From a virus: a stretch of DNA of 64,000 nt. This document shows positions 1-64,000 of this stretch, piece after piece. The stretch is from IMG/VR virus record IMGVR_UViG_3300020410_000948, positions 1 to 64,000 of that record; one strand, given 5' to 3'. Within the stretch, counting starts at the first letter, position 1. Every line of letters starts with the position of its first letter. Under the pieces are notes generated by a model. That model was not told the origin of the DNA. It was given only the letters and a program-made list of their open reading frames with translations, and did no database searches. The position numbers and the translations under genes are program-made.

Positions 1-2
1 AT

Positions 3-854
3 GGCTCTGTCCTATCCCATCAACTCCGACGAAAAGATTTGGCGATCCCTCAATTTATCTCGGTGGGTGGAGGAAGTATGGGAGCAGGTTTTTTAGGAGC
101 TAAGTACAATCCTTTTGTTGTAAATAGCGATGGTAGAATTAGAAATCTAGACATGAAAGTAGACCAGAGATTCTACCAAAGAGCTTACGCCTTAGACGCT
201 ATTGAAAATAACTTTATAAACCAGAGAAGAGGTTCATTAGCAAAAGAACATCAGGCGATCCTTAAAGAGACGTTCAGCGTTCTAACAAGTGCTCAGATGG
301 ACGCGCTCAAAGTGGCTAGCGAGCCTGAAAATATAAAAGAAAGATACGGAGACAATAACTTTGGCAAGGGGTGCTTGATGGCACGGCGTTTAGTCGAAGC
401 AGGAGTACCATTTATTGAAGTTAATCTAGGTGGCTGGGATAATCACCAGAACATTTTCCCTACATTAAGAGATACGAAACTGCCCATGTTAGATCAAGGC
501 ATGAGCGCGCTGTATGAAGATTTAGAGCAGCGTGGGTTATTACAAGACACAGCGATTATTTGGATGGGTGAGTTCAGTAGGACTCCTCGTATCAACGGTA
601 ATGCTGGTCGTGACCACTGGGCGCGAAGTTGGAGTGTTGTTGTTGGCGGAGCTGGAATGAATGGCGGCATAGCCATTGGCGAAACAAACTCAGATGGTAC
701 TCGTGTTGAAACCGAACCATATACATCTCAGGATGTCATGGCTTCTGTTTGCAAAGCTCTTGGTATTTCTCTGGGAACTACGTTTACTAGCAACAGTGGT
801 AGACCTATGAAAATCGCCAACTCTGGTAAGGTTATAACCGAACTGTTTGGTTAA
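3..854 (+). CDS. DUF1501 domain protein (5'-truncated by window edge)
   Basis: Frame is open from base 3 (GSVLSHQL...). Motifs ERYGDNNFGKGCLMARRLVEAGVPFIEV, GGWDNH, DLEQRGLLQDT, GEFSRTPRIN and GRDHW are typical of DUF1501. Confidence 0.9.
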   Translation, partial: GSVLSHQLRRKDLAIPQFISVGGGSMGAGFLGAKYNPFVVNSDGRIRNLDMKVDQRFYQRAYALDAIENNFINQRRGSLAKEHQAILKETFSVLTSAQMDALKVASEPENIKERYGDNNFGKGCLMARRLVEAGVPFIEVNLGGWDNHQNIFPTLRDTKLPMLDQGMSALYEDLEQRGLLQDTAIIWMGEFSRTPRINGNAGRDHWARSWSVVVGGAGMNGGIAIGETNSDGTRVETEPYTSQDVMASVCKALGISLGTTFTSNSGRPMKIANSGKVITELFG

Positions 855-858
855 TACA

Positions 859-1155
859 ATGAAATTTTACAAGAACGCAGTTTATGTGCTTTTTTCGCTA
901 TCCTTACTCAATTTAGCGGGCTCTTTCTATATGTTTAAGCATATAATGGATAAGGAGCCATCAATAGAGGTCAAAATTCCGCTGGAAAAAGACCTTAGAG
1001 AATTGCCCCTGCATGCGAGGCTTAGAGATTCGCAGATAATGCAAGCAATCCTTATGACTCATCACCAACTTGGGATACATAAGCCCGGCTCTCAGCCGAT
1101 GTGCCCAATGTGTCAAGACTCAGAAACTAAAACCATAACAGTAGAGAATAATTAA
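859..1155 (+). CDS. hypothetical membrane-anchored protein with HH...H...CxxC motif
   Basis: ATG at 859; N-terminal hydrophobic helix; C-terminal HHQLGIH...CPMC; stop overlaps the phoH start (TAATG). Confidence 0.7.
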   Translation: MKFYKNAVYVLFSLSLLNLAGSFYMFKHIMDKEPSIEVKIPLEKDLRELPLHARLRDSQIMQAILMTHHQLGIHKPGSQPMCPMCQDSETKTITVENN

Positions 1156-1853
1156 TGGCAAGACAATCTAAGAAGAAGCCCACAACTAGACAGCGCCGAA
1201 AAATACTACGACCAAAGACCAGAAATCAAGAGGACTACATGGGTCATATCCATAAGTCTGATGTCACATTTTGTTCGGGGCCGGCAGGATCAGGAAAAAC
1301 AAGTGTCTCTGTTGGTATGGCGTGTGAATATCTAATCGAGAAGAGAGTAGACAAGATCATTATCACTAGGCCTGTTGTAGAGTCCGGTAGAGGTCTGGGA
1401 CATCTTCCGGGAACTTTAGTTGAAAAGATAAACCCATACTTAATACCTATACTAGAAGAGATGAACCAGTATCTCACAAAGAATACTGTTGAGGCATATA
1501 GAAATAAAAACATTATCGAACTTTGTCCTTTGGAATATATGAGGGGTAGAAACTTTCATAATTGTTTCATGATTCTTGACGAAGCACAGAACGCCACGTT
1601 CGAGCAGATTAAAATGTTTATTACTAGAATTGGTAAAGATTCAAAAGCGGTTATAAACGGAGACTTAAGACAGTCCGATTTAGGCAAGCAACAAGGAGGT
1701 TTGCATACCTGTATGGAAAAATTAGTTGAGGTCTCCGGTGTAGGAGTTTGTGAGCTTGACTATAGCGATATTGTGCGAAGCGATATTGTGTCAAAAATTC
1801 TAATTAGATTAAACAAGAAAGAAGATGATGATGAGCCAGTCAAATATTTTTAG
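1155..1853 (+). CDS. phoH: PhoH family ATPase
   Basis: GPAGSGKT Walker A, ITRPVVE, LGHLPG, YMRGRNF, ILDEAQN, GDLRQSD. Confidence 0.95.
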   Translation: MARQSKKKPTTRQRRKILRPKTRNQEDYMGHIHKSDVTFCSGPAGSGKTSVSVGMACEYLIEKRVDKIIITRPVVESGRGLGHLPGTLVEKINPYLIPILEEMNQYLTKNTVEAYRNKNIIELCPLEYMRGRNFHNCFMILDEAQNATFEQIKMFITRIGKDSKAVINGDLRQSDLGKQQGGLHTCMEKLVEVSGVGVCELDYSDIVRSDIVSKILIRLNKKEDDDEPVKYF

Positions 1854-2148
1854 AGGAGTGTTTCTAGCTGCTATTTTACTTATAGGAGCCAGAGCTGAAT
1901 ATAATAGCCATCAATTAGATAAAAGACTCAACCTTCTAGAGGACGGTGTGCTATTTAACCAACAAATACAAACTGATACATCTATGAAGCTTGAAACATT
2001 TTTGCAGGCTCTTTCTAATGAGCTTCCAATAGAGGTCGAGGCTTACGCTACTGAGGCCGCAGAAAGAGTAGCTAGAGAAACAACGATAAGCACACTGCAA
2101 CAATTCTCAGAAAATTTGAAGAAAATAGATGTCAAACTCGATAAGTGA
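1825..2148 (+). CDS. hypothetical protein, N-terminal TM/signal plus helical region
   Basis: 107 aa ORF with hydrophobic GVFLAAILLIGA, in operon context. Confidence 0.65.
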   Translation: MMMSQSNIFRGVFLAAILLIGARAEYNSHQLDKRLNLLEDGVLFNQQIQTDTSMKLETFLQALSNELPIEVEAYATEAAERVARETTISTLQQFSENLKKIDVKLDK

Positions 2149-2157
2149 TTCTATAAT
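2129..2157 (+). promoter_or_regulatory. putative sigma70-like promoter
   Basis: ATGTCA-17 bp-TATAAT in one of the few intergenic gaps, followed by an ATAGGAG RBS and the fmdB-like gene. Confidence 0.5.
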
Positions 2158-2184
2158 ATCATAGATTATTTATAGGAGTTATAC

Positions 2185-2526
2185 ATGCCGACATATGATT
2201 ATGAGTGCAGTGAGTGTGGTTATCACAAAGAAGTTTTTCAGAAGTTCTCTGAGAAGCCTCTTGTAAGGTGCCCAAAATGCAAAAAGCACAAATTCAGAAG
2301 AGTAATCCTGAGCGCTCCTCATGTTTCCGTCAAGGGTGAACCGACTACAATTCAGCATTTAGCTGACCGCAACACTCAAAAACTTGGCAGGTATGAGCTT
2401 GAATCTAAAATGCAGGCTGACAACATGGACAAGGTTAAGAAAGACCGAGAAGTCAATCAACGAAGAAACAAAATAAACAAGATGACACCGACCCAAAAGA
2501 AAAAATATATAGAGAAAGGCGAATAA
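2185..2526 (+). CDS. FmdB-family zinc-ribbon protein
   Basis: MPTYDYECSECG...CPKC signature; AGGAG RBS. Confidence 0.85.
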   Translation: MPTYDYECSECGYHKEVFQKFSEKPLVRCPKCKKHKFRRVILSAPHVSVKGEPTTIQHLADRNTQKLGRYELESKMQADNMDKVKKDREVNQRRNKINKMTPTQKKKYIEKGE

Positions 2527-2750
2527 TGTCTAAGGTTATACGAGCAGAACAACCACATAAAGCTAGAATTAGATTCGCTATAGACATCTTCCCTATGGGT
2601 CAAGACGGCTCATTGCACCCAACTCCCGTCAGCGCTGAAGAATTGACAAAATATGGAATTACAGACTTTGCTGAAATTTTCGTAGACGGAATCGACAAAC
2701 ATAATTGTATTAAAAACCTTATTTCTAAATTGGAGAGCTTAAATGGCTAG
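2526..2750 (+). CDS. hypothetical protein
   Basis: 74 aa, TAATG-coupled to the upstream gene. Confidence 0.65.
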   Translation: MSKVIRAEQPHKARIRFAIDIFPMGQDGSLHPTPVSAEELTKYGITDFAEIFVDGIDKHNCIKNLISKLESLNG

Positions 2751-3078
2751 ATGGGAACATGAAGACGTTAGCAATCTAGATCTGCCAGATCCAGATAGGA
2801 TAACTCATACTTATTATGGATCGGATGCGTCTGAAACTGCAGAAGATTCGGCATTTGCTAAGCTTGCTAACAACAAGGGATTTAAAACATACTATATTAA
2901 ATACGGGAGAGGTGATTTGTTTGATCCGCTAGGAGCAGACAAAGGAAAGCATAATCGTCCATACTTTACATTTAGGAAAGTAGACGAAAAAGTTTTTGCT
3001 TATTATATGGAATATCTCTCTACGTTGGACAGGATTTTTTTGACAAGAGCTCGCAGAGCATTAATGGAGAATAGTTAA
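2743..3078 (+). CDS. hypothetical protein
   Basis: 111 aa, GGAG RBS, operon context. Confidence 0.7.
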   Translation: MARWEHEDVSNLDLPDPDRITHTYYGSDASETAEDSAFAKLANNKGFKTYYIKYGRGDLFDPLGADKGKHNRPYFTFRKVDEKVFAYYMEYLSTLDRIFLTRARRALMENS

Positions 3079-3417
3079 ATGACTAAGACAGGCCCACTTT
3101 CTAAAGAAGAAAAGACTTATATTGAGGACAACAAAGACAAGAGCGCAGACTCTATCGCTAAAGATTTAGATAGATCTGAGAACATTGTCAACAAACACCT
3201 TACGACAGTCAAGCCCGAGCAGGAAGGTACTGAAGAGGGAGAAGAATGGTCTCCTCCTAAAGCAGGCGAACAGTTTGCTCGTAACGAAAAGTATGGAGCT
3301 ACAGTGATGACTGAAAGTGCTTCTATGACTGGCGACGAAAATAAACAGAAAACTCCTAGAGCTGTACCAGACCGAATGAAAGATTATATCTGTGAGATCA
3401 AGAGGGATGAAAAATGA
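3079..3417 (+). CDS. hypothetical protein with N-terminal HTH-like motif
   Basis: LSKEEKTYIEDN...SIAKDLDRSENIVNKHL resembles a helix-turn-helix; GGAG RBS. Confidence 0.6.
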   Translation: MTKTGPLSKEEKTYIEDNKDKSADSIAKDLDRSENIVNKHLTTVKPEQEGTEEGEEWSPPKAGEQFARNEKYGATVMTESASMTGDENKQKTPRAVPDRMKDYICEIKRDEK

Positions 3418-3923
3418 TATGCACCGTCAGAGATGACTACATAAGAAAACTAATTATGGAAGATATTTCCATGACTTGGAAGTGTACTCTAGACGATGGT
3501 ACTGTTGTTTGGGGTGACTATGAAAGGCCCGGCCTTAACCTAAGTCCTTGGGTTAGATTAAGGGAGTACTGTGAGGAATCCGGTAGAAATATAGTTAAAA
3601 TTCAGTCTATAGTCATAGGCGCACCAGAAGAGGTCGTATATGAAGACGAAAACGGTCTTGACGGTGTGTTCATTGCTAGAGGTTATTCCAAGGATATAGA
3701 TATGGCTACAGGCGATGGGCCTTCTTATCAGCATATGACGTTTGGTTTGTTGAATGAAAATTTAAATCAAGTTGATATTAAGAAGTATAGCTGGCCTGAA
3801 TGTGAATTTGTTGATTTCGTTCAGACTAGAAATGTTACACAAGAAAACCTTTCTTTTATGATTTGGCGAAATGGCGAAACAAAGAAGTCAAACGAGCAAA
3901 TTCAAGTCACCCTCAACGGGTGA
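3414..3923 (+). CDS. hypothetical protein
   Basis: 169 aa, ATGA overlap with the upstream gene. Confidence 0.7.
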   Translation: MICTVRDDYIRKLIMEDISMTWKCTLDDGTVVWGDYERPGLNLSPWVRLREYCEESGRNIVKIQSIVIGAPEEVVYEDENGLDGVFIARGYSKDIDMATGDGPSYQHMTFGLLNENLNQVDIKKYSWPECEFVDFVQTRNVTQENLSFMIWRNGETKKSNEQIQVTLNG

Positions 3924-4323
3924 ATATTGTACAGTAGCTCAATACATTGCAGAAATACTCATACAGCGTAAAGCAGAGTCCGAAAACAAAGGGTCTCTTG
4001 CGTATAAGTTTTGGAACAAAACCCAAAAAGCGGCTTACACTAGACAGGTACAGTCTGTTAGTAAGCTGATATCTGAATTTGGTGAGCGTGCAGTTTTTGA
4101 TTATATAGTAAACAAAAACAAAAAGGTTTATTCTGCAATGCCAAAGTGGGTGAAAGAGGCAGTCGAAAAGCACGCATATTTTCTCAGCAAGAAAAAAGAG
4201 GTTATCAAACAACCTAAGCAGATCCGCAAGGAAAGCGTGAACTCCAAACCCAGAAAAACATATGGAAAGAAAACACTTTTTTCAAAATTAAGGAGCTCTA
4301 ATGGCAAGAGTAAAGAAGAATGA
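3871..4323 (+). CDS. hypothetical basic protein
   Basis: 150 aa Lys-rich ORF directly before recA. Confidence 0.7.
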   Translation: MAKQRSQTSKFKSPSTGEYCTVAQYIAEILIQRKAESENKGSLAYKFWNKTQKAAYTRQVQSVSKLISEFGERAVFDYIVNKNKKVYSAMPKWVKEAVEKHAYFLSKKKEVIKQPKQIRKESVNSKPRKTYGKKTLFSKLRSSNGKSKEE

Positions 4324-5365
4324 TCCTGCGTTTGTCAAGGATATTATTAAGAAATATGGAAATGTTATCTCTACTGGTAATGAAATTTTAGAGCGCCGAA
4401 AAGATTACAAAGTCGTAACTGTTAGCCCTGCGATTGATTTAGCTCTTAACGGAGGTATAAAAGAAGGCTCTTGGGTTATCTTGACGGGCGATCCTAAATG
4501 TGGCAAAACCACTACTGCGTTGCAAATTGCTGCAAACTGCCAAAAAGAAGGACGGCCAATTATTTATCTTGATGCCGAAGGTAGACTCAAAGAAATGAAT
4601 CTGCTTGGAGTCGATGGTCTTGATAAAGAAAAGATGCAAATCATTCACTCGGAAGATGAACCACTCAGTGCGGAAGCATTTTTAGATATTGCCGTCAAGC
4701 TAGTCAGTGCAAAAGAGAATGAAGGCTGTGTCTGCATTATTGATTCTACATCATCACTCATGCCAGCGAAAGAGCTTGATGGAGATATGACTCCCGGACG
4801 AGCGGGTCTACCAAAGATTCTTTCTGTATTCTGTAAAAAGATGGGACAGATTGTTCCAAACCAGCGAGCCACTTTGATTATTATCACACACTTCATTGCT
4901 AATACTTCAGGGTATGGCGCATCAAGAATGCCGGACTGTGGACGTAAAATCCAATATCAGGCCGATACACGAATGGAAGTTAAGTCAATCAGTCCTTGGG
5001 TTCAAGGAGATCGTCAAGTTGGTCAAGCTGTTAATTGGAAAGTTGTATGTTCCTCTATGGGATCTCCGGGAACAGAGTGCCAAAGCTGGGTCAGATATGG
5101 GCACGGGATCGACAAAGTTCAAGAGTTAATTATGTTAGGTCTAGATCTAGGTCTTATCGGAAAAGCAGGTGCTTGGCTGACTTGTGAGTTTATGTTAGGT
5201 CACACAGGCATCGTAAAGGAAATAAAGCCCGAAGTGAATATAGAAGACACAGAAGCTGTGCTTAAGTCTGTTAAATTTCAAGGGCAGGAAAAGCTATACA
5301 ATTTCTTTTTATCGAATGATAAAGTAGTTGATATTCTAGAAAAAGAGATAAGGTTAATGCTTTAA
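4301..5365 (+). CDS. recA: RecA/UvsX-like recombinase
   Basis: SPAIDLALNGGI, Walker A GDPKCGKTT, YLDAE, Walker B CIIDS, GIDK...LGLIGKAGAW; AGGAG RBS. Confidence 0.9.
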   Translation: MARVKKNDPAFVKDIIKKYGNVISTGNEILERRKDYKVVTVSPAIDLALNGGIKEGSWVILTGDPKCGKTTTALQIAANCQKEGRPIIYLDAEGRLKEMNLLGVDGLDKEKMQIIHSEDEPLSAEAFLDIAVKLVSAKENEGCVCIIDSTSSLMPAKELDGDMTPGRAGLPKILSVFCKKMGQIVPNQRATLIIITHFIANTSGYGASRMPDCGRKIQYQADTRMEVKSISPWVQGDRQVGQAVNWKVVCSSMGSPGTECQSWVRYGHGIDKVQELIMLGLDLGLIGKAGAWLTCEFMLGHTGIVKEIKPEVNIEDTEAVLKSVKFQGQEKLYNFFLSNDKVVDILEKEIRLML

Positions 5366-6330
5366 TGTATATAGAGCAACACTGCAAAATTAACGAAGAA
5401 AACAAAGTACATAGCCCAATAGATATTGTAGATGATACAATAACTAGATGTTTTTTCGGCTTGCGCGGTGGTCATGTTTCTGGGGATAGTGATGTATTTC
5501 GTACATGTCTCACTAGAGTACTAGGCTTAAGTTTGAAAGGACTTAAGAACGCATGTAAATTAAATAATATCTGCTTTAATGATCTGCCAAGAGAAAACCT
5601 AATCGTATTTTGCGATGATTTTTCCGCTCATTTTGACATGAGAGGTTATCACAGGGCTTCCAAAAGCCGAAGAGGTACTAGACTTGAAAATCATTACTGG
5701 TTTGGCACCGACTTTGATAGATGGGCTCCTATTGATTTGGATTCACTTTTTTCTCATTTTGACAATATATTCGTAACCAACCTGAAGTCACCAATAGTTT
5801 CTTCTTCTATCGGTAAGCAGCTATATCCTATTCCTATTGGGCCATTTCCTGACACGGACTCACATTCCAATTTGGTGCCATCAGAAAATAAACGCCATTT
5901 AGTGCTCTCAAGTTTTGATATTACACATCATAATAGAGAAGATCTAAACAATGCAATTCAACATCTTGATTATGTAACACGCTTCCCGCCAACCAGTCTC
6001 CCTAGCAGGACAGATTTTTATGCGATGTTATCAGAGCACCGATTTTCTATCTGCCCAGAAGGAAACGCTTGCGATACATTCAGGACTTGGGAGTCAATAC
6101 TGTGCAACTGTGTGCCGATAGTGCAGCCCAGCTTCTGCATGGATATATTTTCTAAAATTTGGCCAATGATAAAGATGGACTTATACAAATTTGACGAGAA
6201 GCTTCTTATCAAAATGTGCAAGTTCCTTATGAAGAATCCCAACTTTCAATACGCCGATACGGAACTCTTGAAACAAGAAAATATTTCAGCGCTCATCAAA
6301 AGGATAAAATATGAATGTGACAGGACTTGA
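5365..6330 (+). CDS. exostosin (GT47)-like glycosyltransferase
   Basis: C-terminal FSICPEGNACDTFRTWESILCNCVPIV motif, shared with 30089-30853. Confidence 0.7.
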   Translation: MYIEQHCKINEENKVHSPIDIVDDTITRCFFGLRGGHVSGDSDVFRTCLTRVLGLSLKGLKNACKLNNICFNDLPRENLIVFCDDFSAHFDMRGYHRASKSRRGTRLENHYWFGTDFDRWAPIDLDSLFSHFDNIFVTNLKSPIVSSSIGKQLYPIPIGPFPDTDSHSNLVPSENKRHLVLSSFDITHHNREDLNNAIQHLDYVTRFPPTSLPSRTDFYAMLSEHRFSICPEGNACDTFRTWESILCNCVPIVQPSFCMDIFSKIWPMIKMDLYKFDEKLLIKMCKFLMKNPNFQYADTELLKQENISALIKRIKYECDRT

Positions 6331-6724
6331 TGGAAAGGTTTGGGTTTGGAATCCAACGAGAAGCCAAGCATCAGTCGATGAAAAAAATAGATCTTCTTTT
6401 CATAAAAAAGCAAAAATATTGTTGAAAGAGATCTATCCGTATGATAGAATTTTGCAAGAAGTCACTCTTCCGGGCACAAAAACTGGGTCAAGGAAAACAC
6501 TTCTTTATGCAGACTTATATATACCAAACAGAGACTTAATGGTAGAGGTGCATGGACAACAGCACTATGAATTTAATTCGTTTTTTCACAAGGATAAGAT
6601 GGCTTTCTTTAAAGCAAAGGCTAGAGACAACGACAAAAAGGCTTGGTGTGAGTTAAACCATATAACTTTAATTGTATTGTCGCACAGCGAGTCCATAGAA
6701 GAGTGGAGGAGTAAATTTGACTAA
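6311..6724 (+). CDS. PD-(D/E)XK endonuclease, DUF559/Vsr-like
   Basis: ADLYIP...MVEVHGQQHY...RDNDKKAWCELNHITLI. Confidence 0.75.
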   Translation: MNVTGLDGKVWVWNPTRSQASVDEKNRSSFHKKAKILLKEIYPYDRILQEVTLPGTKTGSRKTLLYADLYIPNRDLMVEVHGQQHYEFNSFFHKDKMAFFKAKARDNDKKAWCELNHITLIVLSHSESIEEWRSKFD

Positions 6725-7184
6725 CGAACAAAAACTTACTGAATTTTTAAACAATGTAGATGATTGGATTAAAGATAGACATGCCGACTTGGTTGATGTA
6801 AATGAAGAAGTTAAGGAAATAATGAGCTTAACATCGGAGCAGGTACAGGACTTAGATCCTCAGACAGCACTTTCTCATAGCTTTGTTCTTTTTGCGCATG
6901 CAGAATATCTACAAACATTACATAATAAAGAGAGAACTGTTCTAGATTTTTCCGCTAACAGTATTTGGTTTATCATAGCCGACAAGATGGATAACTATGG
7001 TGGCCAATACGCAAAGTGGGAAGTTAGATATCACTCCGCAATTAAAGAGAACCCGCTAGCATCTGAATTGTATAGGCTTAAACTAGCTGCGGAGGCTAGA
7101 TTAAACCGCCTACAATCAAAGTCCGACAACACTAGAAGAATGGCTTCTGTTTTACAAGAGATAGGCAAAAGAAGAGGATACTAA
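6717..7184 (+). CDS. helical protein, possible UvsY-like recombination mediator
   Basis: 155 aa, all-helical/coiled-coil character, close to recA. The function is inferred from size and context only. Confidence 0.45.
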   Translation: MTNEQKLTEFLNNVDDWIKDRHADLVDVNEEVKEIMSLTSEQVQDLDPQTALSHSFVLFAHAEYLQTLHNKERTVLDFSANSIWFIIADKMDNYGGQYAKWEVRYHSAIKENPLASELYRLKLAAEARLNRLQSKSDNTRRMASVLQEIGKRRGY

Positions 7185-7624
7185 TGAGTATTATAGATAC
7201 CGCAAAAAAGCTATTACAAAAAGCTATTGAGTTAAACGATGATGAATTAATTAAAATGGCTAATGCTCTATTGGAAGATGAGGTTGACGCTATAGTCAAA
7301 AACGTTTCATTGCCAGAGCCTGAACCACAAGTTGAGGTTTCAGATACACGGGTTGATCCGTCCCAGTTTACTGTAGAAAAGAGGTCTTTTAAGAAGAAAT
7401 CTCAGGCTGTAAATGAAGTCTCTCGTGGAGACAATCTTTTTGTTGATGATGGAACTGAGCATACTGATATAGACACTCCTGATTTTGTACCAACACAAAG
7501 AAGAGGAGCTGCCCGAAGTGTTATGCAAACATGTGAGGAGTGTGGTAAGAAGTTCAAAGTACCTAAAGTTCACACTAGAGAGTTTTTTGTATGTGACACT
7601 TGTTTAAACAATAGGATTAGATAA
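7184..7624 (+). CDS. hypothetical protein with C-terminal zinc ribbon
   Basis: CEECG...CDTC; GAGGA RBS. Confidence 0.7.
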   Translation: MSIIDTAKKLLQKAIELNDDELIKMANALLEDEVDAIVKNVSLPEPEPQVEVSDTRVDPSQFTVEKRSFKKKSQAVNEVSRGDNLFVDDGTEHTDIDTPDFVPTQRRGAARSVMQTCEECGKKFKVPKVHTREFFVCDTCLNNRIR

Positions 7625-11968: not shown

Positions 11969-11969
11969 A

Positions 11970-52982: not shown

Positions 52983-52983
52983 A

Positions 52984-54684: not shown

Positions 54685-54699
54685 CTATATTGCTCCTTC

Positions 54700-57600: not shown

Positions 57601-57969
57601 ACCAGAAAAAGCAATGTTCATATTAGCGTTATCAGGTGCAGGCTGTCCAATAGCTAAGTTTAGCGCGCCTGTAGCAGAGACATTTCCTATATTCAAGTCG
57701 ATGCCTTGAGTGACGCCAGAGCCTCCAGCAAACTGAAGATCAAGAGCAGAGTTAACTCTACTACCAAGCGGTGTAGGTGTGAAAAGGCCCATACCATCGC
57801 ATCTAAAACCAAGAACTTCAGGTACGCTCAATGTTCTAAACGTCGAAGACCTAGTAGCTCCTATCTTCAATGGCATGTCGCCAACAGAGGAGGCTATCCC
57901 CTTTACATATGCTATAGTATCTCCGCTAGCTGGCACAGAGCCAGTTAGGAATAAAGTTCCTTTACTCAT
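54700..57969 (-). CDS. putative tail protein with short beta repeats flanking an FG-GAP-like propeller
   Basis: Repeating xxL(F/Y)xxG units at both ends; GFGSRIIVSGDLAFVSAP...GAVYIF and LFGYDIDYD...LSVGEP in the middle. Confidence 0.7.
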   Translation of the reverse strand: MSKGTLFLTGSVPASGDTIAYVKGIASSVGDMPLKIGATRSSTFRTLSVPEVLGFRCDGMGLFTPTPLGSRVNSALDLQFAGGSGVTQGIDLNIGNVSATGALNLAIGQPAPDNANMNIAFSGVHGAVNSIPCAEGNLRTFGANILNNNMTLHINRNSATGAPPLYMGSPDPVNADMPLVLNTEFFGSGIDLDQHGHALASSNTTLFLNDRNMSEDLDLFMQAPEPAVADTTLYASGSIAPSANSLSNNFSHQSLPSLSTAPFDTSTSAEAVISPTNSNSISRNKLLESSMDYGYRRISSIGSTIAQYSGFYADSFYENETSRTSIDSNGTYLAIGSNTSVLSTQYALQIFEVVNSSSVKLKYTYDNFLEELKAAGVINSDENFIKIFYKDVKISPAHKIAVSIRVEVSSSYKDIVCILEPSTITTSTVSSDITDICALNPIVTKEIITSSVDGWKLTKAVSSKSWTADTRLDEKLNIIMGTSVAWNGEDLYFDKQSNRYASVKVMLASDSYSGYTTAFSFSDTSDGTGYYDNRYNLPEGTKVGFGSRIIVSGDLAFVSAPLMDNYVANNTLSATNASSPNGAVYIFKNDGGWSNTDSVYAGGFTSTNIAGEGSCGYEPKLFGYDIDYDSVSEFLSVGEPVSKKAYQFVVDSDGTPRLDKSYTSTSNRFGSFVSSSSSSLFTNTASEVQDPRNSSSTSYSSSNISSEIEQYIAGEKVSSSTETITMCKKFDLLGSAVLLVGRDFSATYALGKKVTIQKISLMNLSDLSGTLMLQGPLQSTGIVDLSMQTFGTANNDMSVTFAAYGVTGATTLYMASPGGSTGIIPLHMRASTELDFPLFITAERRPSSGILTTYMSGPSGLTGAMNLMAEPHAAATKQADLSLLGAVGNSEQLGFDLFLPQVDIFDASGQQNLQIANAIGPGTGNITGLRSLYLGAGDFGPASGITTAVMKGPEFLVGSGDMDILLRVDEPSGTDAKANDLMLQNTQTSIPRDSLVGGIITRKGLDIVMNAAGPANSGVDLVLYRKGLSGGQEIEKTMNMSLTNITVSSNVNVYTSGANIVNGDMNVAISGVFGAINKDASLYTKGYQL

Positions 57970-60900
57970 TATTCATCCTCCGAACTAACTGTTGGATAAG
58001 ATCGTATAAACAATGGTAATATCTCTGGTTTCTGTACATCAAAATTTCCATACCTATCTAAGCCACCACTACCTGTGAGACCATGATTTACAAGGCCGTT
58101 GTAGTCACCATCTGAGTTATAGTACAAAACCTGAATAGAATCACTGCTAGTTCCACGACTAATAGTGTTTTCTTTATCAAAATACGCAGCCGATTTTGAA
58201 GAGCCTATTCTTATAATTCCCGGAGCTTCTCCTGACGGCGTATCTTCAGAGCTGGTGCAGTCAAGTCTTCTGTTCAAAGTGTCCTCATATGCTGAACAAT
58301 GAAATCTTCTTATGACTCCAAGATCATAATCACGGTAAGATAGCTTAGCAGAAATAACCCTAACATCGCTTACAAATGAATGCTGGTTTGCAACCGCATC
58401 ATAAGGCTTGCTGTAAGGAACAAAATCTAACTCTTGCTGTCTCATGTCGGATGTCCATTTTTGTCGGTATTGGTCTGGATCTATGGAAATATTTTGATTG
58501 ACAAGACCAACAATAAGGCTGTCTTCTATTGATGCTTCCGAATTAAAGCTAGGTTTGTTCTCATCGTCAAAGTTCAATGTGTAAGTGTTTATCTCTCCTG
58601 CCAGAGTAGCTCTACCGTTTCCATCATTATATCTAAATGTTCTGTCGTCAGAACTGTTTTTTAACACACTTCCCGATCTTATAAATCTAAATAGTTCCGC
58701 TGTCGTGAAGGAGTATGTGCCTCTCCATTCAAGTATAGCTTCGCCTAAAGCAAGAGACTTCTGCTGGAATGTACCCTCTCTTGCTACGTCATAACTATCC
58801 TGCATACCATCAGTATAAAGGGGAGCTCTTGTCGCAGTTTTTGCTCCGTACTTCAAATTTATTCCGGACAGATGACCCTTCTGTGTTATGGTTTTTCTTG
58901 GGTCTTCATTGTAAAGTGTCATCACAGGGAATACTGCATCTGCGCCTATATCGACACCAGCCTGCAAGCAAATATTATTACCTATATCGACAGTGAATTC
59001 AGCGCCGACTAACTTTCTTATGATCTGTTCTTCATCCGAAACATTATCAATATTATATACTAAACATAAACCTTTATGATCTTCACAAACATCAAATATA
59101 TTATCAGCAGATGAGACTCCTGCGCCATCCCTGTAAGAGAACATATTGTTTAAATTGTAAGGTTTTTTTGAATCGAACTTTTCTGTGAAGCTAAAATACG
59201 GTGATGAAAAGTAAGTTTTGCCTACATTCTGGAAGTCTATTCTTTTACTCCTGCCTGAGTCAGAAAATACAGCATGCCCAATAGGTGTCTTCAAAACTAT
59301 TTTTCCATCTAAGACATCAAACATATCATCCATAAGATATGCGATAGAAAGACTATGGTCGCAATTCTCAGAAAACGTTAGCGTGCCTTCTCTAAAATAC
59401 TTTATGTAACTTAAGTCTGAAGCAGTCCCTCGATCTGAGCGACTGTCTGGGCTATTAATGGCGGGCGTAATCTTCTGAAATAGATTGACGCTTTTTAATG
59501 AGTCGCTAATCTCATAAAGATATAGTCTCTGAGCCAAAACATCTACAGATACATCAAACTCACTATTGTAGGACGTTCCATTTGTTGCTAAAATATGTCC
59601 GTCTGATCTAAAGTTGTGACCAAAAGGAGTTCTTAATAATATGTTATCGTCTTCAATGTCTGAACTATTGACAGTTGCAAAGTTATTTCCTGCGTTAACA
59701 CTATACATGTTACCTAAGCCGGGATACAGTCTAAAGAAAGTTACAGATGTATCGGCAAAACCTTGAGCTTCTTGAAACGATGGAGAGTTATAAGAAGTGC
59801 CCGAAGATGAGGGATAGTAAACACTTTGAGAATTGCCATCGTGTACTTTTGAAAATTCCCAGAATTGCATAGGATCAGAGTAAAGATTGCTATTCACATT
59901 GTATATGTTGTAATCATCATTCTCTAGCTTTTGTGCCGCTGTAAAATTTTGATATTCTTCTGAGCCAGATTCTATTTGAATATCTAAATTAAATGTGTCA
60001 AACTCGCTTCCACTTAAAGTAGAGGAGCTTTTATATAAGGTTGTGTTGTCACCCTCAAAAAATACTTTTATCCCATCGCCATCTGTTCCGGCAATAATCT
60101 TACCATCTACATACTGCATAGAGAAAGGCTTGCCATACCATCCTACCATGTTTCTGTATCTTGTGGAGAGGTCATTAGAGGCATTGAAATAGTTTTGCTC
60201 AACAACCTTTTCTCGCAATCTAGTTGTGTGATCCAAAAACTTAGAATTGTATTCTTGGTTTGGATTATATACATATATAGATCCACATCTAAATTTATTA
60301 CCAAGATTGTCTGAGTTGGTTCCATCAGTACAAAAGTCCATTATGAACTGATTTGTCTTAGTGTTTCTTTCATAGAAATCAAGCGAATCTCTATCGTCAT
60401 ATCCAGCATCTGTCGCTGAGTCTATCTTATTTTTTAGTTCCTCTAGCTGACTATCTGCAGACTGACTGACTGATGCTATGTGGGGAAATGTCCTATTAGC
60501 AATTGCGACTATAGGCTTTAATTCTGAGCCAGTAAGGTTTGGTAAATGGTTTTCTTTAAGTGCTATGCTATAGCCAAAGCCATCCGCAAATTTATAGCCG
60601 TCTGTAAGCCACCTAAATGAAATAGCATCTTTTTTCTGAAAGTATGGGAGCGTGTTGTCTTTTACATATTTTACTATATTCTCTCTATAGAATTCAGAGT
60701 CCCATCTCCTCTTAAAGGAAGCTCTTTTGCTACCATCAGTCTTCAAGAAAAACTCATCATTTTCAAAGGCTTCCTCAAGACTTTTATTCGAGTTTTCAAC
60801 CGTAGAAAAAACTCCAGATGTATTATCAGCAATAGCATTTGCCACAGCTGCTCTATACCAATACAAATTTCTATAGTCTGTGAAGACATCCATTGTAACA

Positions 60901-62654
60901 CCAGAGTCTTGAAATGGTGCAGTATTGACGTAAGGATTGGTAGTTGATGCGTCTATTTGATCTGGCGTTGATATGTCACTCAAAAAATCATTTGTTGTGC
61001 TAAGCTTGTATAAAAACACTTTGCCAAAGGGCTTGCTATCGGGCTCTACAAATTTGAATCCGCCTTCGTTTTCATAGGATCTAAACAAAGTGCTTGAATC
61101 GCCCACATCAGCTCTCTCATCTACTATGACAGGACTAGCCTTTCTTTTATTGCCATAGTAATCAATACCCTCTAGACAGGAATAAGGCGCACCAACTTCG
61201 CTGATGGCCAGCCAGTAAAAATCTTGATCGGACTGTCGGACTATATCTACAGACTGTCCAAATCTATATTTATCAGCAACAACAGAAGTGCCGTCATAAT
61301 CTACTACAGTTTCAGATGTAGGAGCAGAAAAGGTGTGATCGGTTGGAATAAGCATATCATCTTTAAAAACCGACTGACCGTTCAATCCATTCGGAGAAAA
61401 GAGAGTCGTGTAGTAGCGCCAAGAACCAGTAAGGTCTTGGGTTGAGCCATAATGAGTCCATGTTACACCGGACACACTTCTAAGAGAAGACGTGTCTGTA
61501 GGTTCATACATCCTTTCATCATCAAACACAAAGTATTGAGTATCACTAATTCTTTTTACATACTTGATACCGTTGGCTGGATGATTGGTAGCGACAGTGT
61601 TATTAGTATTTACTGCGCCAGATATTTTAATTATATCTCCATCTTGAAGTAGCTTTGTATCATATGTGCCATCACCGCTTGGCCCAGATAAAGTTATTTT
61701 ATTTCCATCGACCGCAGTAACAGAACCCTTACGTCTTTCATATATATCTACTCTGCCACATCTATTATGTACTCCTGTTTTACTAAAAAACGAACTACTA
61801 GATACGTCAAACAATACTTTAATAAAACTAATATTTTGTGAAGAATCGCTAGGATTTACAAAAGAAAATATAGTTTCTCCTTGATTAGCAAAAGAAGTGA
61901 GGTTGGCGGAAGTGGGTGAAAAGTTAACAGCCAGACCTTTGTAATTACTACCTTCAATTTTTGCTATAGATGTCGTCGTAGGAAAGAATATAATATCCAT
62001 GCTAGGATTATATCCTAATGAATCTGTAATATAACTATCTTTTTTGACTGCCACTTTACTAACATCAGTGTCAACCGAATAAGATGTTTTTGATAAAACT
62101 GAAGTTGTGGAGGAATCGCCATCTACTAGAGTAAAATCTATACGAGAATCTTTACCCGCATTAGAATTCACAAAATTAGAAATATCATCATTAGAAGCTC
62201 CGACATTCATAAATACTAATCCTGTCTGGAGTTCGTATTCAGTTGTGGTAGACTCATATCCAACAGTGTATGTTTTCTTAATTATAAAAAACTTTTCTGT
62301 ATTATCCAGAGATCTATTCGCCAGAAAAACTTTTTGGCTATGGTCTTTATAGGAGACTATAGCAATGTCGTCGAGTATCTTTATGTCACTGGGAAATTTG
62401 CTGCATGTATCGTCAGAAAAATCTCCGAATATAGAGGGGGCATTGTCACGATAAGGACTGCTCGTAAAGGCGGAGAGAGGCGTTCTGCCTCTGTTTATAG
62501 AGGTTATTCTATCATTAAAGTTAGTAAAGCATTCTATTCCGCCGGGACCTTGTAAAAATAAGTCCATCTCAGAATTTCTCTGCGAAACACCATTAGTCCC
62601 TGTCTCATCATTTTGTATGAATAGGGATGTGTTTTGGTTAGGTTTACAACTCAT
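57969..62654 (-). CDS. putative tail protein with FG-GAP-like repeats
   Basis: ATG at 62654 (TAATG with the TMP stop); RFGQSVDI...GAP...GKVFLY and GFGYSIAL...GSIYVY; LQDGDIIKISG...NG..YVKRIS insert. Confidence 0.7.
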   Translation of the reverse strand: MSCKPNQNTSLFIQNDETGTNGVSQRNSEMDLFLQGPGGIECFTNFNDRITSINRGRTPLSAFTSSPYRDNAPSIFGDFSDDTCSKFPSDIKILDDIAIVSYKDHSQKVFLANRSLDNTEKFFIIKKTYTVGYESTTTEYELQTGLVFMNVGASNDDISNFVNSNAGKDSRIDFTLVDGDSSTTSVLSKTSYSVDTDVSKVAVKKDSYITDSLGYNPSMDIIFFPTTTSIAKIEGSNYKGLAVNFSPTSANLTSFANQGETIFSFVNPSDSSQNISFIKVLFDVSSSSFFSKTGVHNRCGRVDIYERRKGSVTAVDGNKITLSGPSGDGTYDTKLLQDGDIIKISGAVNTNNTVATNHPANGIKYVKRISDTQYFVFDDERMYEPTDTSSLRSVSGVTWTHYGSTQDLTGSWRYYTTLFSPNGLNGQSVFKDDMLIPTDHTFSAPTSETVVDYDGTSVVADKYRFGQSVDIVRQSDQDFYWLAISEVGAPYSCLEGIDYYGNKRKASPVIVDERADVGDSSTLFRSYENEGGFKFVEPDSKPFGKVFLYKLSTTNDFLSDISTPDQIDASTTNPYVNTAPFQDSGVTMDVFTDYRNLYWYRAAVANAIADNTSGVFSTVENSNKSLEEAFENDEFFLKTDGSKRASFKRRWDSEFYRENIVKYVKDNTLPYFQKKDAISFRWLTDGYKFADGFGYSIALKENHLPNLTGSELKPIVAIANRTFPHIASVSQSADSQLEELKNKIDSATDAGYDDRDSLDFYERNTKTNQFIMDFCTDGTNSDNLGNKFRCGSIYVYNPNQEYNSKFLDHTTRLREKVVEQNYFNASNDLSTRYRNMVGWYGKPFSMQYVDGKIIAGTDGDGIKVFFEGDNTTLYKSSSTLSGSEFDTFNLDIQIESGSEEYQNFTAAQKLENDDYNIYNVNSNLYSDPMQFWEFSKVHDGNSQSVYYPSSSGTSYNSPSFQEAQGFADTSVTFFRLYPGLGNMYSVNAGNNFATVNSSDIEDDNILLRTPFGHNFRSDGHILATNGTSYNSEFDVSVDVLAQRLYLYEISDSLKSVNLFQKITPAINSPDSRSDRGTASDLSYIKYFREGTLTFSENCDHSLSIAYLMDDMFDVLDGKIVLKTPIGHAVFSDSGRSKRIDFQNVGKTYFSSPYFSFTEKFDSKKPYNLNNMFSYRDGAGVSSADNIFDVCEDHKGLCLVYNIDNVSDEEQIIRKLVGAEFTVDIGNNICLQAGVDIGADAVFPVMTLYNEDPRKTITQKGHLSGINLKYGAKTATRAPLYTDGMQDSYDVAREGTFQQKSLALGEAILEWRGTYSFTTAELFRFIRSGSVLKNSSDDRTFRYNDGNGRATLAGEINTYTLNFDDENKPSFNSEASIEDSLIVGLVNQNISIDPDQYRQKWTSDMRQQELDFVPYSKPYDAVANQHSFVSDVRVISAKLSYRDYDLGVIRRFHCSAYEDTLNRRLDCTSSEDTPSGEAPGIIRIGSSKSAAYFDKENTISRGTSSDSIQVLYYNSDGDYNGLVNHGLTGSGGLDRYGNFDVQKPEILPLFIRSYPTVSSEDE

Positions 62655-64000
62655 TATGCTACTCTGCCATCCTGTTCTCGCTGCCACATTGTGATTGCAT
62701 TGTCTATCTTGGTTGCCGTGCTTGAAGCGACCGAATCTCCGATAATATTAACCAGCTTGTTAATTGCCTCCTGAGTAAATCCGGGTATCGCTAAACTTCC
62801 GCTAACATTTACATTGTGTGTTATCTGCATGTTTCCAAACTGTGTTGCTATATCCTGTAGCGCATTAGCTACAGTATTAAAGGCTGACATAGCTTGAGAA
62901 ACATTATCTAAAGCCTCCATCAGTGCGTTTCTACCGCCGAAGATACCTCCGCCGTTTTGCCTATACTGAACTCCAGCAACAGAGCCGCCTCTAGCAAATC
63001 CGGGAACCTTGCCCCTGTTAACCTGTTTCATGAATCCAGTGCCGTGCTTTTTGACAGCAGCAGTACTCATAACAAACTCTCCGGGAGTCAACATAGCTGG
63101 CACAGAATCTACAGAACCACCCGAGGCAAAGCCTCGAAAGTTTGCCATGGCAAAGTCACTAGTACCTCGAAATCTTTGCCCAAACCCTGTCGCAAAAGCA
63201 TCCCTGAGTGCAACCATGTCTGCATAAAATTGAGGATTATAAAGGGCGTTTAGTAGCCCCTCTGTCCCGCTTTGGGCGTTATTAAACGCGATCACAGTAG
63301 ACCCAATTTTACCTTTGGTGTTATCGTCCTTTCGAGCCTTGATAGCCGTATGATAAACTCTTCGCTTGTATAGTCCACTATTTTCGCCTGCCTTTCTAAC
63401 AGCCTCGTGGGTGAATGGTGTGCCCGCAAACGGGTCTTGATTACCACGCTTTCCGAATATAGCCCTGTAAAAATCTGATGGTACGACAAATGTGCGTTTT
63501 TGCCCAAGCGCCGGGTTCATGTAAATATTCCCGTCTCCGCCCATCGCCATTAGTTGGCCCTCTTTAGCTACGACTCTTCCAAAATTTATTCCTTCACTAT
63601 TCGTATTCGATCTTACTGCGCCATAACGTGAAGCATAATCCTGTAAGCCCTTAATAGCCCAGATTGTATCGGGGAAAAGCTTCGCTATTGCTCCCTGCGC
63701 CCCCTGTAACGCCATCGCATAGAGTTTACGAAAGTTCTTGACGTTGGGGTCTTTTGCTGCTGCATTTTTTTGCTTTTTGTTTAAAAGATCTCCTTTCGCC
63801 ACGAATGAGCCTTTAAGTAATTTAGTTAAACCTTGTTCTATGAATCCTCCGCCGGCTGCATATACAGTAGAAGCGTTACCGTTATTTAAAGCACTTAGAG
63901 CTCCTACACCAATTTTGTCTACAGCACTTTTCCTAATAACAAATTCACCCGGCGTTAACATTGCTGGCACTGTGTCTGTGCCTCTTGGCTTGAATACATT
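62654..64000 (-). CDS. tail tape-measure protein, C-terminal part (5' end outside window)
   Basis: Frame is open to base 64000 (NVFKPRGTDTVPAMLTPGEFV); two GG...DxVPAMLTPGEFV motifs and FAxGG motifs typical of TMP C-termini. Confidence 0.78.
   Translation of the reverse strand, partial: NVFKPRGTDTVPAMLTPGEFVIRKSAVDKIGVGALSALNNGNASTVYAAGGGFIEQGLTKLLKGSFVAKGDLLNKKQKNAAAKDPNVKNFRKLYAMALQGAQGAIAKLFPDTIWAIKGLQDYASRYGAVRSNTNSEGINFGRVVAKEGQLMAMGGDGNIYMNPALGQKRTFVVPSDFYRAIFGKRGNQDPFAGTPFTHEAVRKAGENSGLYKRRVYHTAIKARKDDNTKGKIGSTVIAFNNAQSGTEGLLNALYNPQFYADMVALRDAFATGFGQRFRGTSDFAMANFRGFASGGSVDSVPAMLTPGEFVMSTAAVKKHGTGFMKQVNRGKVPGFARGGSVAGVQYRQNGGGIFGGRNALMEALDNVSQAMSAFNTVANALQDIATQFGNMQITHNVNVSGSLAIPGFTQEAINKLVNIIGDSVASSTATKIDNAITMWQREQDGRVA
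63054..63979 (-). repeat. two diverged copies (63054-63112, 63921-63979) of the DxVPAMLTPGEFVxxxxAV-coding module
   Basis: Visible at protein level and as imperfect DNA repeats that differ mostly at synonymous sites. Confidence 0.8.

What the first reader, a model, noticed from the sequence alone, without database searches (positions are those of the whole stretch)
1..64000. CCWGG appears completely absent from the window, while CCSGG and CTAG are common
Seen: in a manual scan of several hundred CCAG/CCTG occurrences I found none followed by G. Pro-Gly is repeatedly encoded CCG-GGN or CCC-GGN (e.g. near 1405, 4792, 14994, 16766, 22414, 34232) despite the AT-rich codon usage. A rough base-composition estimate would predict tens of sites. 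CTAG, often rare in bacteria, is abundant. Inference: either avoidance of an EcoRII/Dcm-type CCWGG restriction system in the host, or erosion by 5mC deamination (CCWGG to CTWGG) at Dcm-methylated sites. The signature also covers the glycan locus and inserted genes, implying they are long-resident. It offers a handle for host prediction.
Basis: partly seen in the sequence, partly recalled or inferred. Interest (0 to 1): 0.7.

Follow-up and report, generated by a model that had tools for sequence, protein, structure and literature searches.

The report
Marine phage clade purged of CCWGG
This uncultured marine phage and all its relatives have removed every copy of the five-letter DNA word CCWGG, mostly by silent codon changes; this is the well-known way phages dodge bacterial restriction enzymes, here carried to completion and kept up by ongoing selection.

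Summary
CCWGG occurs 0 times in the window (about 71 expected) and 0 times in the whole 93.8-kb viral contig (98 expected by Markov model, 93±8 by synonymous-codon shuffle).

It is also absent from three other large genomes of the clade (0 against 157, 120 and 125 expected) and from 47 further related loci (0 against 491). These relatives go down to about 52% DnaE identity.

Avoidance is total in all three reading frames. The CCSGG excess is confined to Pro-Gly codons. Products of 5mC deamination show no overall excess. No DNA methyltransferase was found in the phages searched.

Several 6-bp palindromes are also at zero (ATCGAT, TTCGAA, GGATCC, CTCGAG, GTCGAC, CCTAGG), and this secondary set differs between sub-lineages.

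Best reading: selected avoidance of Type II restriction sites, still under selection. Deamination erosion is rejected.

The host-derived DUF1501 gene points to marine Pirellulaceae. There, EcoRII-type and MvaI-type modules exist but are rare (5 and 4 of 301 genomes), so the host link is plausible but unproven.

CTAG is simply at expectation.

This is a known kind of feature, and the scan has already reported similar purges on other DNA, including a CCWGG-free cyanophage.

An unexplained extra: GGWCC is avoided only in the replication/early part of the genome, with a boundary conserved across the clade.

The parts
1..64000 (.). Whole window free of CCWGG (0 observed, about 71 expected). It is part of a 93,806-bp viral contig that is also free of CCWGG (0 against 98).
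3..854 (+). DUF1501 gene fragment (its 5' end is cut by the contig end), derived from a host. It has 0 CCWGG, whereas 78 cellular homologues carry a mean of 2.6 per homologous segment. GC is 0.44, against 0.49-0.51 in the closest hosts.
   Evidence: The gene lies inside the 145-kb relative G001 (100052-100900), so it is a genuine phage gene.
1407..1411 (+). Example of Pro-Gly written CCG-GGN, in frame in the PhoH gene (1155-1853).
   Evidence: the frame was checked from the ORF coordinates.
4793..4797 (+). Example of Pro-Gly written CCC-GGN, in frame in the RecA-like gene (4301-5365).
14994..14998 (+). Example of Pro-Gly written CCG-GGN, in frame in the DnaE N-terminal half (14133-15704).
16766..16770 (+). 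Example of Pro-Gly written CCC-GGN, in frame in the DnaE C-terminal half (16571-18151).
18988..38744 (+). Glycan-synthesis gene block: 0 CCWGG against 21.3 expected, so the purge covers it.
   Evidence: the gene block is as listed and in earlier notes.
39189..64000 (-). Block of very large minus-strand genes with no PHROG family: 0 CCWGG against 31.1 expected.
1..29000 (.). Domain A (replication and early genes). It is also about 10-fold depleted in GGWCC: 2 in its genes against 19 expected by codon shuffle, and a single site (12693) in the first 29 kb.
   Evidence: The same holds at syntenic positions in G001, G002 and G003.
29001..64000 (.). Start of domain B (distal glycan operon and structural genes), where GGWCC is near expectation (41 against 58 over 29-93.8 kb) while CCWGG stays at zero.

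Best explanation
The absence of CCWGG is selected restriction-site avoidance. This phage carries no protective DNA methyltransferase that I could find. It escapes host Type II restriction enzymes by not containing their target words.

CCWGG is the one target avoided by the entire clade. A set of 6-bp palindromes is avoided as well, and that set changes between sub-lineages, as expected if host restriction repertoires turn over.

Sites are removed mostly by synonymous codon choice:
- CCW-GGN becomes CCS-GGN.
- NCC-TGG becomes NCT-TGG.
- NCC is never followed by AGG.
- NNC-CAG-G becomes NNC-CAA-G, or the preceding codon changes.

Some removal is by amino-acid change: the Pro-Gly dipeptide is about one third rarer than in controls.

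New sites that arise by mutation are eliminated, presumably because a single cut of the incoming genome aborts the infection.

Shown here: the absence, its statistical weight, its frame-aware nature, its conservation across the clade, ongoing selection, and the lack of known DNA methyltransferase genes.

Inferred: that the selecting agent is a CCWGG-cutting enzyme in the hosts, and that the hosts are marine Pirellulaceae.

Because elimination is total rather than a thinning-out, an enzyme that cuts single sites (MvaI/BstNI-like) fits better than EcoRII. From my own knowledge, EcoRII needs two nearby sites.
For: (1) Counts: 0 against 98 expected in the contig (Markov model, P = 3e-43); 0 against 93 ± 8 by codon shuffle.

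(2) All three codon phases are at zero against 37.6, 19.4 and 35.4 expected. The CCSGG excess is confined to the Pro-Gly phase (54 against 16.4); the other two phases are below expectation.

(3) Codon detail: Pro-Gly uses CCA/CCT in 0 of 54 cases; NCC-TGG 0 of 96; NCC-AGG 0 of 45; NNC-CAG-G 0 of 38; NNC-CTG-G 0 of 109.

(4) Other palindromes are at zero: ATCGAT 0/16, TTCGAA 0/15, GGATCC 0/11.5, CTCGAG 0/7, CCTAGG 0/6, CCCGGG 0/6. CGCG is 40 against 98.

(5) Across the clade: G001 0/157, G002 0/120, G003 0/125, and 47 other loci (569 kb) 0/491. Distant phages that also carry DnaE have 352 against 396 expected.

(6) Ongoing selection: if the substitutions separating G000 and G001 are placed at random positions, 36.6 ± 5.8 new sites appear (minimum 24). 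None is observed.

(7) Turnover of the secondary sites: G003 avoids CTGCAG (0/15) and GCCGGC (0/14) but tolerates ATCGAT (13/18). G001 avoids TCCGGA (0/13) while G000 has 12.

(8) No C5, N4/N6 or D12 DNA methyltransferase, no EcoRII-like nuclease and no tyrosine integrase in G000-G004, including a 94%-complete genome.

(9) The acquired DUF1501 gene is purged: hosts carry 2.6 sites per gene, phage copies 0.

(10) The candidate host family has complete operons of a C5 methyltransferase, Vsr and a full-length EcoRII homologue (E = 4e-85 to PDB 1NA6). It also has MvaI-like nucleases, one of them next to an N4/N6 methyltransferase in a marine MAG that is among the closest DUF1501 donors.

(11) Some Pirellulaceae loci are depleted in CCWGG but not in CCSGG, for example 4/27.6 against 32/22.5.

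(12) Precedent: complete elimination of orthodox Type II sites occurs in about a tenth of phage genomes and is stronger in non-temperate phages (PMC6286503).
Against: - The selecting enzyme has not been identified. EcoRII-type and MvaI/BcnI-type nucleases were found in only 5 and 4 of 301 sampled genomes of the candidate host family.
- The two most CCWGG-depleted host genomes have neither family.
- The specificity of the MvaI-like enzymes is inferred only from their being closer to MvaI than to BcnI.
- The host assignment rests on one transferred gene.
- The contig is only about 61% complete, so a methyltransferase could lie in the missing part. The 94%-complete relative has none, though.
- A small generic SAM methyltransferase (12980-13636) has an unknown substrate.
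- Why CCWGG, unlike every other site, is invariant across such deep divergence is not explained by rare host systems.
Confidence: 0.85

Rival explanations
1. Mutational erosion. Phage DNA is methylated at the inner cytosine of CCWGG by a Dcm-type enzyme, and 5-methylcytosine deamination has converted the sites to CTWGG or CCWAG.
For: In the NCC|WGG phase the replacement is mostly NCT-WGG (94 observed against 59 expected). That is the deamination product. It is also the commonest synonymous alternative, and NCA-TGG would create the mildly avoided CATG. C5 methyltransferase plus Vsr operons exist in some Pirellulaceae.
Against: - No C5 methyltransferase in the phage genomes searched.
- CTWGG + CCWAG overall: 310 observed against 305-327 expected.
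- The largest sink is CCW to CCS in Pro-Gly codons (+38), a transversion at the unmethylated centre.
- No excess of CCWAG in any phase, and no rise in Leu-Gly, Pro-Ser or Pro-Arg dipeptides.
- Mutation pressure alone cannot drive about 1000 expected sites to exactly zero against amino-acid constraint.
- It cannot explain the loss of ATCGAT, TTCGAA, GGATCC and the other 6-mers.
Confidence: 0.03
2. Indirect avoidance through methyl-directed (Type IV) restriction. Some strains methylate CCWGG with an orphan or R-M methyltransferase, and progeny carrying that mark are cut by McrBC- or Mrr-like enzymes in the next strain. Having no site then avoids both classical and methyl-dependent restriction.
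For: C5 methyltransferase-Vsr modules occur in the candidate host family. Total elimination would protect against both kinds of enzyme. This reading shares all the sequence-level evidence of the main explanation.
Against: I did not search for Type IV enzymes. The published survey finds real under-representation only for orthodox Type II sites (PMC6286503). The parallel loss of 6-bp palindromes points to ordinary Type II pressure.
Confidence: 0.06
3. Self-immunity. The phage itself encodes a CCWGG-specific nuclease that shreds host DNA (hosts carry about 2-5 sites per kb), and its own genome must therefore lack the word.
For: CCWGG is the only site that is invariant across the whole clade while the others come and go. 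Host loci carry normal numbers of sites (2997 against 3410 expected). Many phage genes have no family assignment.
Against: No EcoRII-C match in five phage genomes. In the genes scanned, the only nuclease domains found were a proofreading exonuclease, a RecB-like PD-(D/E)XK nuclease, ERCC4 and an HNH/GIY-YIG homing-type protein. The simultaneous absence of six or more other palindromes would need as many nucleases.
Confidence: 0.05
4. Artefact or mimicry. Either systematic base-calling or assembly error at a methylated motif, or the phage simply copying its host's oligonucleotide usage.
For: From my own knowledge, Dcm sites are a known source of nanopore consensus errors. The CCSGG excess could superficially look like W-to-S miscalls.
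Against: - The CCSGG excess is restricted to the one codon phase where it is synonymous.
- The other phases are resolved by different synonymous routes.
- Reading frames are intact.
- The same result holds in contigs from dozens of metagenomes, and the sequence is held by runs from at least 6 studies.
- Candidate host loci have a CCWGG ratio of about 0.88, so there is nothing to mimic.
Confidence: 0.01

Closest known systems
Restriction-site (short palindrome) avoidance in non-temperate dsDNA phages, as surveyed by Rusinov et al. 2018 (PMC6286503)
   Same: Complete elimination (compositional bias below 0.1) of an orthodox Type II recognition site. Several palindromes are avoided at once. No sign of a temperate lifestyle and no phage methyltransferase. 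The proteins are kept through synonymous recoding.
   Different: The host and its enzymes are not known here, whereas the survey used phages with known hosts and known enzymes. The avoidance here is documented across a whole uncultured marine clade (about 1 Mb, 0 against about 990 expected), with a direct test for ongoing selection.
Coliphages T7/T3 and EcoRII (own knowledge: these phages have few, widely spaced CCWGG sites that resist EcoRII because the enzyme needs two sites)
   Same: The same target word and the same general logic of escaping a CCWGG enzyme by site scarcity.
   Different: T7 and T3 keep a few sites. Here the count is exactly zero in every genome, which suggests pressure from an enzyme that cuts single sites. 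No Ocr-like function was looked for.
Other purges found by this scan, e.g. a CCWGG-free T4-like cyanophage (e1-5734518) and a CCGG-free cyanophage (e1-5357620)
   Same: The same phenomenon and the same Pro-Gly CCS-GGN signature, in marine phages.
   Different: A different phage lineage (it uses DnaE, and its putative host is a planctomycete). Those notes are unchecked AI reports and I did not re-test them.
Phage T5 first-step-transfer DNA lacking EcoRI sites (own knowledge; related context in PMC10644984)
   Same: It resembles only the side observation: avoidance of a site (GGWCC) confined to one contiguous part of the genome.
   Different: The depleted domain here is about two thirds of the genome, not 8%. 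The order of DNA entry and any protective early protein are unknown.

Membership tests
Restriction-site avoidance (orthodox Type II targets) in phage genomes | The target is a short palindromic word of the kind recognised by Type II enzymes, with an observed/expected ratio far below 1 under a Markov null | tested here: met
   CCWGG 0 against 98 expected (P = 3e-43). It ranks first of 416 palindromic motifs.
Restriction-site avoidance (orthodox Type II targets) in phage genomes | The depletion holds against a null that preserves proteins and codon usage, so it acts at the DNA level | tested here: met
   Codon shuffle gives 93 ± 8, minimum 69, against 0 observed. All three phases are at zero.
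Restriction-site avoidance (orthodox Type II targets) in phage genomes | Maintained by selection rather than by history | tested here: met
   0 against about 990 expected across the clade. The substitution-placement test expects 36.6 ± 5.8 new sites; 0 are seen.
Restriction-site avoidance (orthodox Type II targets) in phage genomes | The phage does not protect the site by its own methyltransferase | tested here: met
   No PF00145, PF01555 or PF02086 in G000-G004, including a 94%-complete genome. Other methyltransferase families were not searched.
Restriction-site avoidance (orthodox Type II targets) in phage genomes | The host encodes a restriction enzyme of that specificity | tested here: inconclusive
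   In the candidate host family, EcoRII-type modules occur in 5 of 301 genomes and MvaI/BcnI-type in 4 of 301, one of them in a close DUF1501 donor with an adjacent methyltransferase. The host identity and the enzyme specificity are both inferred.
Restriction-site avoidance (orthodox Type II targets) in phage genomes | Adding a site makes the phage sensitive to restriction | not testable with these tools
   The phage and its host are uncultured.
Dcm/5mC deamination erosion of CCWGG | A Dcm-type C5 methyltransferase acts on the phage DNA | tested here: not met
   No PF00145 in five phage genomes. Methylation by a host enzyme cannot be excluded.
Dcm/5mC deamination erosion of CCWGG | Excess of the deamination products CTWGG and CCWAG that matches the missing sites | tested here: not met
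   310 observed against 305-327 expected overall. There is an excess only in the phase where C-to-T is synonymous. The main sink is CCSGG.

The most novel reading that the evidence does not exclude
CCWGG is the only word avoided without exception across the whole clade while all other avoided sites turn over. This could mean that it is not a host enzyme but a conserved, still unrecognised phage-encoded CCWGG-specific nuclease that destroys host DNA for nucleotide recycling, with the site-free genome serving as self-immunity.

A related open possibility concerns the GGWCC avoidance that is confined to one genome domain. It might reflect staged DNA entry, or an early protective function.
Probability: 0.05. 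Interest if true: 0.7.

Novelty: new member of a known kind. Interest (0 to 1): 0.35.

Why it matters
This is a clean, extreme and well-controlled example of restriction-site avoidance in an abundant, uncultured marine phage clade. The sequence is held near-identically by metagenomes from at least six studies, and the clade probably infects planktonic Pirellulaceae, a group with very few described phages.

The list of absent words is in effect a record of the restriction specificities these phages meet in the sea:
- CCWGG in every lineage.
- ATCGAT, TTCGAA, GGATCC, CTCGAG and GTCGAC in most lineages.
- CTGCAG, GCCGGC or TCCGGA in some.

That record could be matched to methylomes of marine MAGs to link phages with hosts.

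It does not reveal a new mechanism. The domain-limited GGWCC avoidance is the one element that current knowledge does not readily explain.

Tried and rejected
- blastn of 7.7 kb of the large-gene block against 50,697 GenBank phage records found no match.
- PHROG scans of the six giant minus-strand proteins found no family.
- The test for an excess of outer-position neighbours (DCWGG + CCWGH, 1068 against about 875) is largely an arithmetic consequence of the site being absent. I do not use it as evidence.
- The apparent regional difference in CATG disappeared under the codon-shuffle null.
- tRNA scan: none in this contig. The relative G001 has 2 tRNAs and a tmRNA, which I did not use for host assignment.
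- L077, a 152-kb, 41% GC contig binned in a 'SAR202' MAG, and L078, a 2.7-kb contig binned as 'Proteobacteria' that matches the phage DUF1501 at 100% over 232 residues, look like phage DNA of this clade that was mis-binned. I did not take them as host evidence.
- The enrichment of MvaI-type enzymes in CCWGG-depleted hosts (1 of 5 against 4 of 301) is too weak to count.
- I did not lay reads, because only contigs are kept for the runs that hold the phage, and contigs drop rare variants.
Full report
**What the window is.** The window is the first 64 kb of a 93,806-bp linear IMG/VR viral contig, which CheckV estimates to be about 61% complete.

It encodes these functions:
- PhoH, a RecA-like protein, a DnaB-type helicase, a primase and a dNMP kinase
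- a RecB-like nuclease
- a DnaE split in two, with a proofreading exonuclease gene between the halves
- sigma-factor-like proteins
- a long block of glycan-synthesis genes
- very large minus-strand genes with no PHROG family
- beyond the window, a terminase, a ClpP-type protease, a second Gmd and an HNH/GIY-YIG protein

GC content is about 40%, and there is a strand switch near 39 kb. The sequence is held near-identically by marine metagenome runs from at least six studies.

**The observation.** CCWGG occurs 0 times in the window, among 209 CCAG and 174 CCTG. The expected count is 61-75, depending on the order of the Markov model. It is the most under-represented of all 4- to 6-mers (z = -8.4).

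In the whole contig it is 0 against 97.9 expected (P = 3e-43), which ranks first of 416 palindromic motifs tested. I also ran 300 shuffles of synonymous codons within each gene, which keep every protein and each gene's codon usage. These give 93.1 ± 8.0 with a minimum of 69.

CTAG is common, but only at expectation: 206 against 225-248 in the window and 326 against 350 in the contig.

**How the sites are avoided.** All three codon phases are at zero, against 37.6, 19.4 and 35.4 expected. One search gives the detail:
- All 54 Pro-Gly pairs use CCC or CCG, although CCA and CCT are 72% of Pro codons overall and 80% of Pro codons before other G-starting codons.
- None of the 96 Ser/Pro/Thr/Ala codons before Trp is NCC.
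- AGG never follows NCC (0 of 45).
- Gln between NNC and GNN is always CAA (38 of 38).
- Leu in the same context is never CTG (0 of 109).

The CCSGG excess is confined to the Pro-Gly phase (54 against 16.4). The other two phases are below expectation (6 against 9.2; 3 against 9.1). This frame-awareness rules out a sequencing or base-calling artefact.

The purge also reaches the protein level. The Pro-Gly dipeptide stands at 0.67 of its shuffle expectation in this phage and 0.62 in G001. The ratio is 1.12 in distant DnaE phages that do not avoid the site and 0.88 in candidate host loci.

**Deamination or selection.** Overall, CTWGG + CCWAG are 310 against 305-327 expected.

By phase, an excess exists only for NCT-WGG (94 against 59). 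There, C-to-T is synonymous, and the alternative NCA-TGG would create CATG, itself mildly avoided. CCWAG shows no excess in any phase.

The largest sink is CCW to CCS, a change at the central base that deamination cannot produce. Leu-Gly, Pro-Ser and Pro-Arg dipeptides are not raised.

No C5, N4/N6 or D12-class DNA methyltransferase is detectable in six-frame searches of this contig or of four relatives, one of them 94% complete.

Several palindromes that have nothing to do with Dcm are also absent:
- ATCGAT 0 against 16
- TTCGAA 0 against 15
- GGATCC 0 against 11.5
- CTCGAG 0 against 7
- CCTAGG 0 against 6
- CCCGGG 0 against 6
- CGCG 40 against 98

I therefore reject deamination erosion as the cause.

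**The clade.** A search with the DnaE N-terminal half found 66 related viral loci. Every locus from 98% down to 52% identity has zero CCWGG, while more distant DnaE phages have normal counts (352 against 396).

| Sequence | CCWGG observed / expected |
|---|---|
| G000 (this contig, 94 kb) | 0 / 98 |
| G001 (145 kb, 94% complete) | 0 / 157 |
| G002 (110 kb) | 0 / 120 |
| G003 (106 kb) | 0 / 125 |
| 47 further loci (569 kb) | 0 / 491 |

As a direct test of ongoing selection, I kept the number and base-to-base spectrum of the substitutions that separate G000 and G001 over about 50 kb of alignment, and placed them at random positions. This creates 36.6 ± 5.8 CCWGG sites (minimum 24 in 200 trials). 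The real sequence has none.

The secondary avoided words change between sub-lineages:
- G003 lacks CTGCAG (0 against 15) and GCCGGC (0 against 14) but tolerates ATCGAT (13 against 18) and GGTACC (12 against 17).
- G001 lacks TCCGGA (0 against 13), while G000 has 12.

This is what changing host restriction repertoires would produce. CCWGG is the one constant.

No tyrosine integrase was found. That fits the published finding that complete site elimination is typical of non-temperate phages and of orthodox Type II sites (PMC6286503).

**Host side.** The DUF1501 fragment at 3-854 is 64-81% identical to genes of Pirellulaceae and other Planctomycetota MAGs. The closest are marine MAGs of 45-48% GC. 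The gene lies inside G001, so it belongs to the phage.

Its cellular homologues carry 2.6 CCWGG per homologous segment on average (zero in only 5 of 78). The three phage copies carry none. At the host site positions the phage differs at all five positions of the word, not only at the methylatable ones.

Pooled host loci have a CCWGG ratio of 0.88, so the phage is not mimicking its host. A few host loci are depleted in CCWGG but not in CCSGG, for example 4/27.6 against 32/22.5.

In a 301-genome sample of the host family:
- EcoRII-C nucleases occur in 5 genomes. The three I examined are operons of a C5 methyltransferase, Vsr and a nuclease. The one I compared is a full-length EcoRII homologue (E = 4e-85 to PDB 1NA6).
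- MvaI/BcnI-family nucleases occur in 4 genomes. One is G008, a marine MAG among the closest DUF1501 donors, where the nuclease overlaps an N4/N6 methyltransferase gene and is closer to MvaI (5e-15) than to BcnI (5e-6).
- One of the five CCWGG-depleted genomes has a similar enzyme. None of the five has an EcoRII-type enzyme.

So enzymes of the right kind exist in the right family, but they are rare in MAGs. Their specificity is inferred, and the host assignment rests on a single gene.

Restriction avoidance is supported and deamination is not.

The purge does cover the glycan block (0 against 21.3) and every other region. The acquired DUF1501 gene has been cleaned of sites, which is consistent with long residence or with strong selection.

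As a handle for host prediction, the signature is suggestive but not yet discriminating.

**An unexplained extra.** GGWCC behaves differently from CCWGG. Using the codon-shuffle null:

| Genome | Domain A | GGWCC obs / exp | Domain B | GGWCC obs / exp |
|---|---|---|---|---|
| G000 | 1-29 kb (replication and early genes) | 2 / 19 | 29-93.8 kb (distal glycan operon, structural and packaging genes) | 41 / 58 |
| G001 | rest of genome | 10 / 50 | 20-70 kb | 43 / 54 |

The genomes are collinear and the boundary falls at syntenic positions (G000 about 29 kb corresponds to G001 about 72 kb). G002 and G003 show the same split.

The genomes differ by 20-30% at the nucleotide level, so a purely historical signal should have decayed. 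That is my rough inference and I did not compute it. Two ideas remain untested:
- replication modules exchange between phage lineages with different restriction exposure
- DNA entry is staged, or an early function protects the rest of the genome; from my own knowledge, T5 first-step-transfer DNA lacks EcoRI sites

**Novelty.** Restriction-site avoidance has been known for decades and has been surveyed systematically (PMC6286503). This scan has already reported comparable purges on other DNA, including a CCWGG-free cyanophage.

What this case adds:
- completeness of the purge, and its documentation across a whole clade
- a direct test for ongoing selection
- a plausible planctomycete host context
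- the domain-limited GGWCC pattern

I class it as a new member of a known kind.

Noticed in passing
window 1-29000 versus 29001-64000 (and on to 93.8 kb); G001 = L069-L076; G002 = L173-L178; G003 = L167-L172: GGWCC is about 10-fold depleted only in the replication/early domain (G000 2 against 19 expected; G001 10 against 50). It is near expectation in the domain holding the distal glycan operon and the structural genes (41 against 58; 43 against 54). The boundary is at syntenic positions in four genomes. ACTAGT behaves similarly. Neither module exchange nor staged DNA entry has been tested.
   Followed up: partly
window 3-854 and G001 (L074, about 52-900): The phage DUF1501 gene is 98.6% identical in protein between G000 and G001, although DnaE is only 78% identical and the flanking DNA about 72-81%. 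This suggests recent exchange of the gene between phage lineages, or unusually strong constraint on it.
   Followed up: no
L077 (VFHP01000007.1, 152,655 bp, binned as a SAR202 MAG) and L078 (2.7-kb contig binned as Proteobacteria UBA6522): Both look like phage DNA of this clade that was mis-binned into bacterial MAGs. L077 has 41% GC, a DUF1501 gene at 81% identity and 1 CCWGG against 17 expected. L078 matches the phage DUF1501 at 100% over 232 residues. The single CCWGG in L077 is at 14448.
   Followed up: partly
window 12980-13636 (+): A small class-I SAM methyltransferase (Methyltransf_11, E = 2e-9) sits between the RecB-like nuclease and DnaE in the replication module. Its substrate is unknown, and it is not one of the usual DNA methyltransferase families.
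   Followed up: no
window 14133-18151 (+): DnaE is split into two ORFs (14133-15704 with the PHP and polymerase core; 16571-18151 with the finger, HhH and OB domains). An RNase_T-type proofreading exonuclease gene (15919-16608) lies between them.
   Followed up: partly
L075:5449-5789 (G001, about 125.4 kb): The 145-kb relative encodes a tmRNA (tag peptide VEENFALAA) and two tRNAs (Arg-TCT, Glu-TTC). This contig has no tRNA in its 94 kb.
   Followed up: no
L055 (IMGVR_UViG_3300031111_000023): A much more distant DnaE phage (29% identity) also has 0 CCWGG (27 expected) but 21 TTCGAA. So a CCWGG-free genome is not limited to this clade.
   Followed up: no
window 40937-62687 (-): Six consecutive genes of 566-1572 aa have no PHROG family at E ≤ 0.001. 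The DNA finds nothing among 50,697 GenBank phage records.
   Followed up: partly
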